From Lewinellaceae bacterium (lineage in GTDB: Bacteria; Bacteroidota; Bacteroidia; Chitinophagales; Saprospiraceae), in the NCBI GenBank assembly GCA_020636095.1, contig JACJYN010000014.1, positions 2,095 through 66,094 on the forward strand: a DNA stretch of 64,000 nt, read 5' to 3'. Each line of letters starts with the position of its first letter. Position 1 is the first letter of the stretch. Shown piece after piece: positions 45,001 through 48,000 of the stretch. The position numbers are program-made.

Positions 45001-48000
45001 GCGGCGGGTAGTAAGTGCCGGCAAAGAAGGGCCGCCCGTCGGGGGTCAGGAAGCAGTTGAGCGGCCAGCCGCCGCTGCCGCTGATGGCCTGGCAGGCTTC
45101 CATATATATCTGGTCTACGTCGGGGCGCTCCTCCCGGTCTACTTTTATATTGATGAAGTGTTCGTTCATGAGGGCGGCCACCTGCTCGTCTTCAAAGCTC
45201 TCCCGCTCCATCACGTGACACCAGTGGCAGGTGCTGTAACCGATGCTTACCAGGATGGGCTTGTCCTCCGCTTTGGCGCGCTCGAAAGCCTCGGGCTTCC
45301 AGGCGTGCCAGTCGACCGGGTTGTGGGCGTGTTGCAGCAGGTAGGGGCTGGTCTCGTGTTGGAGTCTGTTCATTTGTATTCGGTGTTTCGGTATTTCGGT
45401 ATTTCGGTATTTCGGTATTTCGGTGGTTCGGTAGCCCTCCCGGCGAACGGCGCTGTCCGGGCCCCCCGTAGGATACCCTGCGAACAGCGAACTGCGAACC
45501 GGCGAACCGGCGGTGTTCGGTATTCGGTATTCGGTATTCGGTATTTCGGGGGTTCGCTAGCCCTCCCGGCGAACGGCGCTGTCCGGGCCCCGGCAGAATA
45601 CCCTGCGAACTTGCGAACTTGCGAACTGCGAACTGCGAACAGCGAATTGCGAACCAGCGAACTTGCAAACAGCCCCAAACAGCCCTTGCATTTAACTGGC
45701 AGTAAAAAGCCAGTAACGAACAACTACCAAGAATAACCTATAGACAAGGGATTCTGTTCAAAAAATGAACAAACATGCCAACAAGTACACTACGATTCAT
45801 TACTTTCATGGATATAATCATTCTGTGATGGCAAAAAACAAGAAAAGAAAAAAGGCGCCGACGCCAGCCAAACCGCTCAAACCGGCCAACTACATTCGAA
45901 AAGTAGCCCGAAAGCTAATGGAAAGCCTTTTCTGGTTACCGGCCCCTATGACAACCTGGAAGCCATCTCGCGCAAGCTGGCGAAAAAAGGGTTGGCCCTG
46001 GGAAAAGATGTGGATTATATAATGGGCTTCGAACCGCCGGTATTCGGTATCGCTAGCCCTCCGGCGAACGGCGCTGTCCTACTCCGTAGGATACCCTGCA
46101 ACAGCGAACTGCGAACCGGCGAACCGGCGGTGTTCGGTATTCGGTATTCGGTATTCGGTATTTCGGGGGTTCGCTAGCCCTCCCGGCGAACGGCGCTGTC
46201 CACCGGCAGAATACCCTGCGAACTGCGAACTGCGAACCGGCGAATTGCGAACCGCCGGTATTCGGTATTCGCTAGCCCTCCCGGCGAACGGCGCTGTCCG
46301 GGCCCCCGTAGGATACCCTGCGAACTGCGAACCGCGAACCGCCGGTGTTCGGTATTCGGTGGTTCGGTATTCGGTAGCCCCCCGCGAACGGCGCTGTCCT
46401 ACCCCGTAGGATACCCTGCGAACTTGCGAACTGCGAACTGCGAACTTGCGAACGGAACTTGCGAACAGCGAACTGCGAACCGGCGAATTGCGAACCGCCG
46501 GTATTCGGTATTCGCTAGCCCCCCGCGAACGGCGCTGTCCGACCCGGTAGAATACCCTGCGAACTTGCGAACTTGCGAACTGCGAACTGCGAACAGCGAA
46601 TTGCGAACCAGCGAACTTGCAAACAGCCCCAAACAGCCCTTGCATTTAACTGGCAGTAAAAAGCCAGTAACGAACAACTACCAAGAATAACCTATAGACA
46701 AGGGATTCTGTTCAAAAAATGAACAAACATGCCAACAAGTACACTACGATTCATTACTTTCATGGATATAATCATTCTGTGATGGCAAAAAACAAGAAAA
46801 GAAAAAAGGCGCCGACGCCAGCCAAACCGCTCAAACCGGCCAACTACATTCGAAAAGTAGCCCGAAAGCTAATGGAAAGCCTTTTCTGGTTACCGGCCCC
46901 TATGACAACCTGGAAGCCATCTCGCGCAAGCTGGCGAAAAAAGGGTTGGCCCTGGGAAAAGATGTGGATTATATAATGGGCTTCGAATAAAGGTTTGAGA
47001 ACCTTACCGTTAACTCCCGCCTGTATAGGTTCTTAAACCTGTGAACATCAGCGTGCAAGGGGTAATAGCGGCTACTCGTCTTAGACGGGAGCCCGTAATA
47101 ACTTCCCCTCCCATTTCCGGCGTATTTGGCAACTGTTTAGGTATTCCGGTTTTATGGTTTTTCGGTATTGCGGCCAGATGCTTCTGGAGGCCGTATCCGG
47201 CTCTCAACGGTGGACCTCCAGGTAACCGCAATACCATAACACCAAAATACCATCATAGCTAAATAGTTACCGTACCTGTTTGGTTGTACGAGGAAGTTTA
47301 TTAGTACCCGCTCGGTACAGGCCCGATTGGCAGGCTACCAAAAACAGTTGCGATTCATTACAATATATCTCTACATAAAATGCTGCAATGGGAAAAATTA
47401 TAGGCAGAGGAGTACTTCTCCTTACAACCACACCTAACGGCCCGAAATTTAAATTCGGATATCAACTGAGTTCAACCGGAATTCAGTTTTCTATTCCAGG
47501 CGGAGATTCTGCCCCGCAGACATTAAAACAGGCTGTACGACAGCACTTTTCAGCTTCCACCTCCTCGGTCACGGGGCAGGGCCATCTCATCCTGAATGCG
47601 CTTCCTGCTTCCCCCAATGATGCATTCTATGATGTAGCGTTCAGGGCTACCCGCATAGGGACCAGCGCCGAGTCCTTCTCCCTTCAGGTGAAAGAAAGCG
47701 GCTCTTTTGCACAGGGGCCGCAGTCTCACTTTTCCAATCTGGATCTTACTTTTAAGTATAAAGAAAGTGAGGGCCTTTCCATTGATTCGGGCGGAAAAGT
47801 AACCCTCCACCTCGGCGAAGGCGTGTTTAACGGGGAGGAGGCCATTATCCTGTCCCCCGAATGGAACCCGCAAAGCGAAACCCTGATCTTTTCGGCCGGC
47901 GGCGCCGGAATCCAAATGGATTCGATCGGAAAGCTCAGTACAATTGTAGTCGAGGTCGGATCTGCCTATGACCGGTGGAGCCAGGTGCAGAGCTTATACA

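What the first reader, a model, noticed from the sequence alone, without database searches (positions are those of the whole stretch)
45374..46987. Composite satellite with seven about 55-bp cores and a 954-nt-period duplication at the boundary of the giant operon
Between the DUF255 gene and the operon lies a structure built from three parts: runs of the octamer TTCGGTAT, a conserved core, and runs of the heptamer TGCGAAC.

- **Core.** The core reads GCTAGCCCTCCCGGCGAACGGCGCTGTCC(n6-10)(G/A)ATACCCTGCGAAC. Its 16-mer GCGAACGGCGCTGTCC is invariant in all seven copies, at about 45431, 45556, 46052, 46173, 46271, 46374 and 46514. Core spacing is irregular (95-138 nt).
- **Duplication.** A 439-bp unique segment (45595-46033) is repeated, apparently perfectly, at 46549-46987. 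This implies a recent tandem duplication or unequal recombination mediated by the satellite.
- **Dispersal.** Shorter runs of the same GCGAAC / CGAATA / TTCGGT vocabulary occur at 9670-9770, 12285-12325, 15440-15470 and 47140-47240. The family is therefore dispersed through intergenic DNA.
Basis: seen in the sequence. Interest (0 to 1): 0.6.

Follow-up and report, generated by a model that had tools for sequence, protein, structure and literature searches.

The report
Mosaic heptamer satellite with duplicated pseudogene
The gap between two genes in this large Bacteroidota genome is filled by a fast-changing, non-coding satellite built from 7-8-base repeats, a kind of bacterial repeat already described, and here it has also duplicated the dead remnant of a small gene.

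Summary
The 16-mer GCGAACGGCGCTGTCC occurs seven times (0.04 expected by chance). 45595-46033 and 46549-46987 are identical over 439 bp. The core is flanked by runs of TTCGGTAT/TTCGGTA and TGCGAAC.

The locus is one of about 66 intergenic loci (about 18 kb) of a mosaic satellite seen only within the genus so far. The genome's tandem repeats are dominated by 7- and 8-nt units. (TGCGAAC)3 occurs in 7 of 9 congeners and in 0 of 31 genomes outside the genus. The 16-mer core was found only in this genome.

- The units do not fold better than shuffled sequence, match no Rfam family and have no coding potential.
- They are not the REPs of the genome's single RAYT-like gene.
- The "unique" duplicated segment is the leader plus a 373-nt-deleted, frameshifted remnant of a conserved 193-aa gene that is intact in a congener.
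- The duplication joint lies at a CGAA microhomology inside the satellite.
- Orthologous sites in congeners hold nothing, a short seed or a different array, so turnover is fast.

This is a new member of a known kind: long simple-sequence repeats and heptamer assemblages. The scan has reported the same kind in other Bacteroidota genomes.

The parts
43322..45373 (-). DUF255 / thioredoxin-DsbH-like gene. Its ATG lies 5 nt from the first octamer of the satellite.
   Evidence: Pfam PF03190, E = 1.8e-78. Coding log-likelihood ratio +189. Sequence read.
45379..45434 (+). Left arm: seven octamers TTCGGT(A/G)(T/G).
   Evidence: TRF: period 8, 6.9 copies, 91% matches. The repeat finder family D3.
45431..45665 (+). 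Satellite block 1: two higher-order units (U1, U2). Each unit is arm, GCTAGCCCTCCCGGCGAACGGCGCTGTCC, variable 6-10 nt, ATACCCT, then (GCGAACN)n.
   Evidence: 16-mers at 45443 and 45569. TRF period 126 x 2.0. Families D1, D4 and D5.
45595..46033 (+). Copy 1 of the perfect 439-bp duplication: tail of U2, the (GCGAACN)n arm and segment X.
   Evidence: 439/439 identical to 46549-46987.
45687..46033 (+). Segment X, copy 1. It holds the conserved upstream leader and the pseudogene remnant of a 193-aa gene: ATG at 45828, a 373-nt internal deletion at 45916/45917 and a frameshift. The stop codon was lost at the duplication joint.
   Evidence: 89-90% identical to congener G001, where the gene is intact. 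Alignment shows the 373-nt gap. Frames read.
46029..46038 (+). Novel joint of the duplication, ..TTCGAA|CCGCCGG.., with CGAA microhomology to the satellite's GCGAA|CCGCCGG linker.
   Evidence: Sequence. Linker family D8, CGAACCGCCGGTATTCGGTAT, at 46030, 46248 and 46491.
46034..46619 (+). Satellite block 2: five higher-order units (U3-U7).
   Evidence: 16-mers at 46064, 46186, 46284, 46384 and 46525. TRF periods 98-121. The 102-nt tract 46100-46201 is identical to 45483-45584.
46549..46987 (+). Copy 2 of the 439-bp duplication. It includes X copy 2: ATG at 46782, deletion point 46870/46871, original stop TAA at 46988-46990.
46989..47043 (.). Neighbouring 52-nt hairpin repeat of a different dispersed family. 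It is not part of the satellite.
   Evidence: DNA fold z = -4.9. Copies elsewhere in G000 and in congeners (query positions 354-408).
47123..47271 (.). Neighbouring palindromic element of about 140 nt with octamer-repeat arms.
   Evidence: DNA fold z = -5.85, 0/200 shuffles fold as well. Of the 47 G000 matches to the whole 785-bp query, most of those listed fall on this element, and all 9 congeners have matches (query positions 488-636).
47388..50729 (+). First gene (1113 aa, LamG-like domain) of the large + strand gene cluster. Only the last 50 nt or so upstream of it are conserved with G001.
   Evidence: Pfam PF13385. Comparison with the G001 sequence.

Best explanation
The region is a non-coding, higher-order ('mosaic') satellite. 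It belongs to a genus-specific family of long simple-sequence repeats, and I see no dedicated function for it.

**How the arrays form**
- The basic unit is a run of (N)TTCGG(T/G)N words, a short centre, and a run of NGCGAAC words.
- Units of 7-8 nt expand and contract by replication slippage.
- Blocks of about 100-140 nt are then amplified and homogenised locally by unequal exchange and gene conversion.
- Each locus therefore carries its own variant. Here that variant is the GCGAACGGCGCTGTCC core.

**History of this locus**
- The array grew from a short seed that already lay next to the DUF255 start codon in the common ancestor with congener G001.
- The neighbouring 193-aa gene decayed through a 373-nt deletion and a frameshift.
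- A microhomology-mediated (CGAA) tandem duplication then copied part of the array plus the dead gene and its leader.
- Further unit loss, gain and conversion left perfect identity tracts at two different offsets (617 and 954).

**Status of each step**
- Shown: the anatomy, the dispersal, the non-coding nature, the pseudogene, the joint, and the turnover between species.
- Inferred: the slippage and recombination mechanism, and the absence of a dedicated function.
For: - **Anatomy and significance:**
- **Dispersal:** 82 clusters in 66 loci, about 17.9 kb, almost all between predicted genes. nhmmer finds 68 core-like units at about 20 loci.
- **Repeat-rich genome:** the TRF census gives 946 non-redundant arrays. 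Periods 7, 8, 14, 15, 16 and 21 dominate. The commonest heptamers all contain TTCG/CGAA.
- **Phyletic range:** (TGCGAAC)3 occurs in 7/9 congeners and 0/31 genomes outside the genus. The reversed-pattern control gives 0. The core 19-mer is found only in G000, apart from one 2-mismatch hit in another genus.
- **No structure or RNA family:** RNA fold z-scores run from -1.4 to +0.8 on both strands. Rfam gives nothing.
- **No coding potential:** array ORFs have a negative log-likelihood ratio.
- **No positional rule:** arrays occur in all four intergenic configurations. Same-sense versus antisense is 19 versus 10 (p = 0.14). Arrays lie nearer to stops than to starts. There is no link to GC skew (p = 0.12).
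- **Turnover at orthologous sites:**
  - This locus in G001 has only about 5 TTCGGT-like words plus a CCGCTGTCTACC centre.
  - The C23 locus has no array in G002 and G006, a (GTTCGCA)n array in G007, a single unit of about 55 nt in G001, and 700 nt in G000.
  - The C52 locus has 0-2 heptamers in congeners against 7 x 103 nt in G000.
- **Pseudogene:**
- **Known kind:** heptamer-rich long simple-sequence repeats and the slippage hypothesis are described by Mrazek et al. 2007, as summarised in PMC4679880 and PMC4692102.
Against: - Slippage alone does not explain how the same centres appear at many unlinked loci and in a congener. Examples are GAGTCCGAAATCCGGAAGAACACCCTGCGAA, TTCGGTAGGACACTCTGGGAACTGCG and the 16-mer core at four loci. 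Some spreading process is needed, such as insertion of single units or ectopic conversion, and it was not identified.
- At C52 the array lies between a conserved promoter-like box and the start codon. It is therefore probably transcribed as a leader of about 760 nt, so an RNA-level effect is not excluded.
- Six of seven four-helix-bundle (23S_rRNA_IVP) genes in this genome sit next to 7-8-nt arrays. That hints at a cassette-like biology for at least some arrays.
- No reads or RNA data could be examined.
Confidence: 0.68

Rival explanations
1. The basic unit (arm-centre-arm, about 55 nt) is a small non-autonomous mobile element, either MITE-like or an IVS-like cassette arm. It inserts at new intergenic sites and then expands in place. 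The arrays are secondary growth of inserted elements.
For: - Identical centres occur at unlinked loci and in congener G001.
- At the C23 site G001 has a single unit exactly where G002 and G006 have only a terminator hairpin.
- A four-helix-bundle gene (C45:15237-15551) is flanked on both sides by units of this family, and the same layout is seen in congener G008.
- An earlier scan note on another genome (e1-2468723) reported insertion-like behaviour of similar elements. That note is unverified here.
Against: - No terminal inverted repeats or target-site duplications were seen at array ends.
- Units do not fold better than shuffled sequence.
- The only Y1-transposase-like gene is flanked by a different REP.
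- At this locus and at C52 the array can be traced to short seeds at the same position in G001. That fits growth in place.
Confidence: 0.15
2. The arrays are functional cis-elements. They could be tunable leaders or spacers whose repeat number sets transcription, mRNA processing or translation of the neighbouring genes (contingency-type regulation). They could also replace intrinsic terminators.
For: - The left arm ends 5 nt from the DUF255 start codon. Arrays also abut start codons at C52, at C23:1340840 and in congeners G006 and G008.
- At C52 the array lies inside the probable 5' leader.
- At C23 the array occupies the place where congeners have a terminator hairpin.
- Precedents exist: TAACTGA repeats lie just upstream of start codons (PMC4679880), and SSR-dependent phase variation has been shown through a 5'-UTR element (PMC12721329, abstract seen).
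Against: - There is no consistent position or orientation relative to genes. Only 3 of 17 array 5' ends that face a start codon lie within 16 nt of it. Arrays are closer to stops than to starts, and 10-13 loci are convergent.
- Presence or absence varies between congeners at the same genes.
- There is no stable structure.
Confidence: 0.12
3. The 954-nt-period duplication, or the number of units, is an assembly artefact caused by repeats.
For: - Two tracts are perfectly identical.
- Arrays of this kind often end contigs in the fragmented congener assemblies (hits at contig positions 54-74, 135-155 and 708-728).
- No reads could be checked.
Against: - The joint ..ATGGGCTTCGAA|CCGCCGGTATTCGGTATCGC.. 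is a novel sequence formed at a 4-5-nt microhomology. Assemblers join at shared k-mers and do not invent such joints.
- Unit U3 next to the joint carries private changes.
- The same assembly resolves seven near-identical 103-nt units at C52, which suggests reads long enough to span them.
- X occurs nowhere else in the genome.
Confidence: 0.05

Closest known systems
Long simple-sequence repeats with 5-11-nt units (LSSR; Mrazek, Guo & Shah 2007, as summarised in PMC4679880 and PMC4692102)
   Same: - Tandem runs of 7-8-nt units far longer than chance.
- Heptamers are the dominant class in the genome.
- Intergenic location.
- Lineage-specific words.
- Length variation between relatives.
- Proposed origin by polymerase slippage.
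   Different: Two quasi-complementary word types (TTCGGTN and NGCGAAC) alternate with short centres to form higher-order units of 98-141 nt, and these units are themselves tandemly amplified. The family shares a TTCG/CGAA tetranucleotide across many different words.
TAACTGA direct repeats and mixed 'assemblages of heptamer repeats' in Beggiatoaceae, Cyanobacteria and a few Bacteroidetes (PMC4679880)
   Same: - Intergenic heptamer arrays, some directly upstream of start codons.
- Mixed heptamer assemblages in nearly identical intergenic regions (Elizabethkingia).
- Assemblies break in them.
- A suggested role in rearrangement.
   Different: The words differ. There is no general preference here for positions just upstream of start codons. 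Distribution is restricted to one genus among the genomes searched.
Xanthomonas GGGAATC and Nostoc GGGGAYT heptamer repeats (Rehm et al. 2015, PMC4692102); cyanobacterial STRR heptamers (Calothrix, cited there)
   Same: - Genus-specific intergenic heptamer arrays at conserved gene pairs.
- Extensive length and sequence variation between close relatives.
- Occasional inverted pairs.
   Different: The words here are not G-rich and have no G-quadruplex potential. This locus has a composite higher-order structure.
E. coli BIMEs (mosaics of REP / palindromic units), as background from PMC3733652 and general knowledge
   Same: Extragenic mosaic of a few short motifs in a fixed order, tandemly iterated and dispersed at many loci.
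   Different: - Units here are in direct, not alternating, orientation.
- They are not significant palindromes.
- The genome's RAYT-like gene is flanked by another REP.
Staphylococcal STAR elements (PMC3532100) and the minisatellite-bearing MITE of Porphyromonas gingivalis (PMC4596501); abstracts only
   Same: Interspersed intergenic direct repeats or minisatellites whose copy number differs between strains. One example comes from the same phylum.
   Different: Their unit sizes and sequences are different. The P. gingivalis array sits inside a defined MITE with terminal inverted repeats, and no such ends were seen here.

Membership tests
LSSR (long simple-sequence repeats, 5-11-nt class) | Tandem runs of a 1-11-nt unit longer than expected by chance in that genome | tested here: met
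   (TTCGGTAT)x6.9 and (TGCGAAC)-type runs of up to 11 copies. (TGCGAAC)3 with at most 1 mismatch gives 57 hits in G000 against 0 for the reversed control.
LSSR (long simple-sequence repeats, 5-11-nt class) | Heptamers (5-11-nt units) are the dominant class genome-wide, and units that are not multiples of three lie outside genes | tested here: met
   TRF gives 170 rows for period 7 and 117 for period 8, against 17 for period 6 and 24 for period 9. 61 of 66 loci have no strong predicted ORF across them.
REP / BIME (RAYT-associated palindromic repeats) | The unit is a stable imperfect palindrome of 20-40 nt | tested here: not met
   Fold z-scores of eight unit-length stretches on both strands run from -1.44 to +0.82. 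The neighbouring true hairpin elements score z = -5.85 and -4.87.
REP / BIME (RAYT-associated palindromic repeats) | The repeat flanks the cognate RAYT (Y1 transposase) gene | tested here: not met
   There is a single weak Y1_Tnp match, a 226-aa ORF at C12:1255042-1255722. It is flanked by CGTGCCGCGATCATCCTGATCGCACGGC repeats, not by TTCGG/GCGAAC words.
REP / BIME (RAYT-associated palindromic repeats) | Units alternate in orientation within a mosaic | tested here: not met
   All seven cores lie on the + strand. 55 of 66 loci have at least 80% of their words in one orientation.
MITE | Terminal inverted repeats and target-site duplication; filled versus empty sites | tested here: inconclusive
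   No common termini or duplications are visible at about 25 array ends. One site has a single unit in G001 where G002 and G006 have none, but the flanks have also diverged.
CRISPR array | Constant repeat, unique spacers of constant length, adjacent leader and cas genes | tested here: not met
   The 'spacers' are themselves 7-8-nt tandem runs of variable length. The flanking genes are DUF255, PorP/SprF and a LamG protein.
Known structured RNA (Rfam) | Match to a covariance model | tested here: not met
   Only a chance-level hit (E = 0.84, inside the DUF255 gene) in 44000-48500 at the permissive threshold.

The most novel reading that the evidence does not exclude
The TTCGG/GCGAAC units are not passive slippage products. 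On this reading they are the arms of an actively spreading, IVS-like or hairpin-cassette system of this lineage.

- Single units would insert at gene boundaries, sometimes carrying small genes such as the four-helix-bundle (23S_rRNA_IVP) genes. In this genome 6 of 7 of those genes sit next to 7-8-nt arrays, and one sits between units of this very family.
- Once transcribed in leaders or trailers, the units would act as processing, insulation or tuning sites whose strength changes with unit number.
Probability: 0.1. Interest if true: 0.6.

Novelty: new member of a known kind. Interest (0 to 1): 0.3.

Why it matters
- **Annotation.** The region should be marked as satellite plus pseudogene, not as ORFs. 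Several spurious ORFs of 60-390 aa run through it.
- **Genome stability.** The locus is a clear example of how heptamer satellites destabilise a bacterial intergenic region. A dead gene and its leader were duplicated at a 4-5-nt microhomology. Unit numbers differ between the two daughter blocks. Congeners carry anything from nothing to 700 nt at the same sites.
- **Practical uses.** These arrays are natural strain-typing (VNTR) markers. They also warn that short-read assemblies of this genus will break or collapse here.
- **Limits.** The finding does not open a new biological question beyond the standing one of why heptamer satellites flourish in some lineages.

Tried and rejected
- **Rfam** at a permissive threshold over 44000-48500 gave nothing.
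- **RNA folding** of eight unit-sized stretches on both strands was no better than shuffles, so the sRNA, riboswitch and terminator-hairpin readings were dropped.
- **REP/RAYT idea.** The one Y1-transposase-like gene has a different REP.
- **Promoter or leader-specific element.** Arrays occur in all intergenic configurations, mostly nearer to stops than to starts.
- **Replication-strand polarity.** Orientation versus GC skew was not significant.
- **Programmed frameshift in the small ORF.** This is rejected: the gene has a 373-nt internal deletion relative to the intact congener gene.
- **First pattern search in relatives**. It used too narrow a gap (N5-14, whereas the real gap reaches 16) and missed most of the genome's own copies. 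It was replaced.
- **The 193-aa protein** has no Pfam or NCBIfam match.
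Full report
**1. Observation**

I read the region 45000-47500 directly.
- Five bases after the start codon of the minus-strand DUF255 gene (43322-45373; Pfam PF03190) there is a run of seven octamers TTCGGT(A/G)(T/G) at 45379-45434.
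- Two composite units follow, then a non-repetitive stretch, then five more composite units, then the same non-repetitive stretch again.
- The 16-mer GCGAACGGCGCTGTCC occurs seven times, all on the + strand (45443, 45569, 46064, 46186, 46284, 46384, 46525). Shuffles give 0.04 expected.
- TRF and the repeat finder confirm the octamer and heptamer runs and higher-order periods of 98-126 nt.
- The duplication is exactly as reported: 45595-46033 = 46549-46987, 439/439 identical.
- A second perfect tract, 45483-45584 = 46100-46201 (102 nt), lies at a different offset of 617.

**2. Family and range**

The window is G000:C6:2095-66094 of a 9.35-Mb, 54-contig genome. It carries a type IX secretion gene (PorP/SprF). 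Its DUF255 protein has its best hits in Bacteroidota MAGs labelled Saprospiraceae or Chitinophagaceae, at no more than 60% identity.

Genome-wide census:
- The 16-mer (at most 1 mismatch) occurs at four loci. One of them, C52:458123-458741, is a very regular array of seven 103-nt units.
- An nhmmer profile of the core finds 68 units at about 20 loci.
- Clustering the four hexamers TTCGGT, GCGAAC and their complements gives 82 clusters in 66 loci, about 17.9 kb.
- A TRF census finds 946 non-redundant tandem arrays. Periods 7 and 8 and their multiples 14, 15, 16 and 21 dominate.
- The commonest heptamers (AACTGCG, AACACCG, AACAGCG, AACTCCG, AATACCG and others) all contain TTCG/CGAA.

Relatives:
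- (TGCGAAC)3 with at most one mismatch is present in 7 of 9 congeners and in none of 31 genomes from other genera of the family and order. The reversed-pattern control gives zero.
- The core 19-mer is found only in G000.
- The architecture in congeners is the same but the words and centres differ.

**3. What the 'core' is**

Across loci the recurring design is:
- a run of (N)TTCGG(T/G)N;
- a short centre, for example AGGCCACCC, TAGGACACTCTG or CCGAAATCCGGAAGAACACCC;
- a run of NGCGAAC;
- a short GC-rich linker (GGCGGWG or CCGCCGG).

In the C52 variant, the 103-nt unit splits into two halves that align at 28/36 positions (0/2000 shuffles score as well). The GGCGCTGTCCGG..TCGGTAG part is a degenerate left arm. 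In the window's variants this homology is weaker, with 104-209 of 2000 shuffles scoring as well. I therefore read the 'core' as two decayed basic units fused into one higher-order repeat. This is an inference with moderate support.

**4. What it is not**

- **Not coding.** ORFs through the arrays have negative codon log-likelihood ratios, against +189 and +208 for the flanking genes.
- **Not a known RNA.** Rfam gives no real match.
- **Not a significant hairpin.** Eight unit-sized stretches on both strands fold with z from -1.44 to +0.82 relative to dinucleotide shuffles. The two unrelated elements just downstream (46989-47043 and 47123-47271) fold with z = -4.9 and -5.85.
- **Not the REP of a RAYT.** The genome has one weak Y1_Tnp match, a 226-aa ORF with HxH and Y motifs. 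It is flanked by arrays of a different palindrome, CGTGCCGCGATCATCCTGATCGCACGGC. That palindrome also appears in the 72-nt repeat at window 4315-4468.

**5. Gene context**

I used a codon-usage ORF caller of my own on all 66 loci.
- Arrays lie between genes in all configurations. Among oriented loci, 19 are co-directional same-sense, 10 are antisense (p = 0.14), 10 are convergent and 3 are divergent.
- Array ends are nearer to stop codons (medians 55 and 91 nt) than to start codons (131 and 180 nt).
- Orientation does not follow GC skew (p = 0.12).
- The window locus is one of the few in a divergent gap, and its close contact with a start codon is not a family rule.

**6. The 'unique' segment is a dead gene**

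- A conceptual join of the two reading frames found in X matches one 193-aa ORF in congener G001. There, residues 1-30 and 155-193 are separated by about 120 residues.
- G001 has the same gene order: DUF255, then the 193-aa gene, then the first gene of the large cluster.
- DNA alignment shows that X is 89-90% identical to the G001 leader and gene ends and lacks 373 nt internally, which shifts the frame.
- Full-length homologues (45-80% identity) exist in 5 of 60 other genera of the family. The protein has no Pfam or NCBIfam match.
- G000 has no intact copy.
- The duplication therefore copied a pseudogene and its leader. In copy 1 the original stop is replaced by satellite sequence.

**7. How the duplication arose**

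- Copy 2 continues ..GGGCTTCGAA|TAAAGG.. while copy 1 continues ..GGGCTTCGAA|CCGCCGGTATTCGGTAT.. .
- The latter is the satellite's normal linker..TGCGAA|CCGCCGGTATTCGGTAT, which occurs unchanged at 46248 and 46491.
- The joint therefore sits at a 4-5-nt microhomology (CGAA). No array lies downstream of copy 2.
- This is the signature of an illegitimate, microhomology-mediated tandem duplication (template switching or slippage), not of homologous unequal crossing-over between two flanking arrays.
- Afterwards the two array blocks diverged in unit number (2 versus 5). The perfect tracts at offsets 617 and 954, and the mosaic loops of U2 relative to U1/U5, U4 and U7, indicate further exchange between units. 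This last point is an inference.
- The novel joint also argues against an assembly artefact, because assemblers do not create joints at 4-nt overlaps.

**8. Turnover at orthologous sites**

- *This locus.* G001 has only about five TTCGGT-like words and a CCGCTGTCTACC centre between the DUF255 start and the conserved leader TGCATTTAACTG... The array therefore grew in place from a seed. The other congeners lack this gene neighbourhood.
- *C23:1475460.* G002 and G006 have an intrinsic-terminator-like hairpin and no array. G007 has the hairpin plus a (GTTCGCA/GTTCGCT)n array. G001 has one unit of about 55 nt. G000 has 700 nt.
- *C52:458011.* The array lies between a box conserved in five congeners (aaatcaaatttggtagcttt) and the start codon. 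From general knowledge of the Bacteroidetes -7 consensus TAnnTTTG, the box resembles a promoter. Congeners have a 40-110-nt leader. G001 has two heptamers, ccgaacaccgaaaatATG, at the place where G000 has seven 103-nt units. The array is therefore probably transcribed there, but this was not tested.

**9. Comparison with what is known**

- Heptamer-dominated long simple-sequence repeats, and the idea that 7 nt favours polymerase slippage, come from Mrazek et al. 2007, as summarised in PMC4679880 and PMC4692102.
- Genus-specific intergenic heptamer arrays with strong length variation are described for Xanthomonas and Nostoc (PMC4692102).
- TAACTGA arrays and mixed heptamer 'assemblages' are described for Beggiatoaceae, Cyanobacteria and some Bacteroidetes (PMC4679880).
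- The present family meets the LSSR criteria and fails the REP/BIME, CRISPR and Rfam tests. The MITE test is inconclusive.
- Earlier notes of this scan report the same kind of mosaic 7-8-nt arrays in several other Bacteroidota genomes, so the phenomenon is not new to the scan either.

**10. A lead that I partly tested**

- In G000, 6 of the 7 matches above the Pfam cut-off have a 7-8-nt array within 500 nt. About 9% of the genome is that close to such an array.
- Three of the six have repeat words on the two sides that are, or resemble, each other's reverse complement, for example (TTAATGG)n and (ATTAACC)n.
- One gene (C45:15237-15551) lies between two units of the TTCGG/GCGAAC family, as in congener G008.
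- This does not change the reading of the window locus, where the enclosed gene is of another family. It does keep open a cassette-like origin for some arrays.

**11. Verdict**

The locus is an ordinary, if elaborate, member of a known class of bacterial satellite DNA. It has a well-resolved local history: seed, expansion, gene decay, microhomology duplication, then unit exchange. Function remains unshown. I put 0.68 on 'no dedicated function, slippage and recombination product', about 0.15 on mobile units, about 0.12 on a cis-regulatory role and about 0.05 on artefact.

Noticed in passing
window 47123-47271: A palindromic element of about 140 nt whose arms are degenerate octamer runs (GGTWTTNC). 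Its DNA fold gives z = -5.85. The 785-bp query that contained it gave 47 matches in G000 and matches in all nine congeners, and most of the listed ones fall on this element. It is a separate MITE-like family and is absent from the orthologous spacer in G001.
   Followed up: partly
window 46989-47043: A 52-nt hairpin (AGGTTTGAGAACCT...AGGTTCTTAAACCT, z = -4.9) directly after the pseudogene's stop codon. It belongs to another short dispersed family with copies on other contigs and in congeners.
   Followed up: partly
G000:C12:1253632-1256874 (L104); window 4315-4468: The genome's only Y1-transposase (RAYT-like) ORF (226 aa) has on one side about ten tandem 50-55-nt units carrying the palindrome CGTGCCGCGATCATCCTGATCGCACGGC, and inverted copies next to each of its ends. 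The same palindrome occurs in the 72-nt tandem repeat at window 4315-4468. This is probably the genome's true REP/RAYT system.
   Followed up: partly
G000:C45:15083-15777, C53:150290-150793, C52:2584-3119, C12:1833667-1834189, C4:39664-40254, C45:7366-8028: Six of seven four-helix-bundle (Pfam 23S_rRNA_IVP) genes lie within 500 nt of 7-8-nt (in one case 25-nt) tandem arrays, against a background of about 9% of the genome. Four have arrays on both sides, and in three of those the words on the two sides are, or resemble, each other's reverse complement.
   Followed up: partly
G000:C52:457950-458950 (L022): Seven near-identical 103-nt units lie between a promoter-like box conserved in five congeners and the start codon of a 522-aa gene. 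They probably form a repeat leader of about 760 nt, and congeners have leaders of 40-110 nt.
   Followed up: partly
G000:C23:1475400-1476250 (L021) and L134-L137: At this site congeners G002 and G006 have an intrinsic-terminator-like hairpin after the upstream gene. In G000 the 700-nt array starts right after the stop codon and no such hairpin is seen.
   Followed up: partly
L106:1498-2079 (-) in congener G001; remnants at window 45828-46033 and 46782-46987: An uncharacterised conserved 193-aa protein family (MARNKKRKKQPQPAKPLKPANYIRKVARKLPIAHCKINEDW...). It has no Pfam or NCBIfam match and was found full-length in 5 of 60 other genera of the family.
   Followed up: partly
window 14767-15209: Opposed octamer arrays, (GTGAGGTA)n facing (ATCACNNN)n, share only a 4-nt complementary core (GTGA/TCAC). 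This is the same design principle as TTCG/CGAA in the present family. It is already the subject of a separate first-stage note.
   Followed up: no
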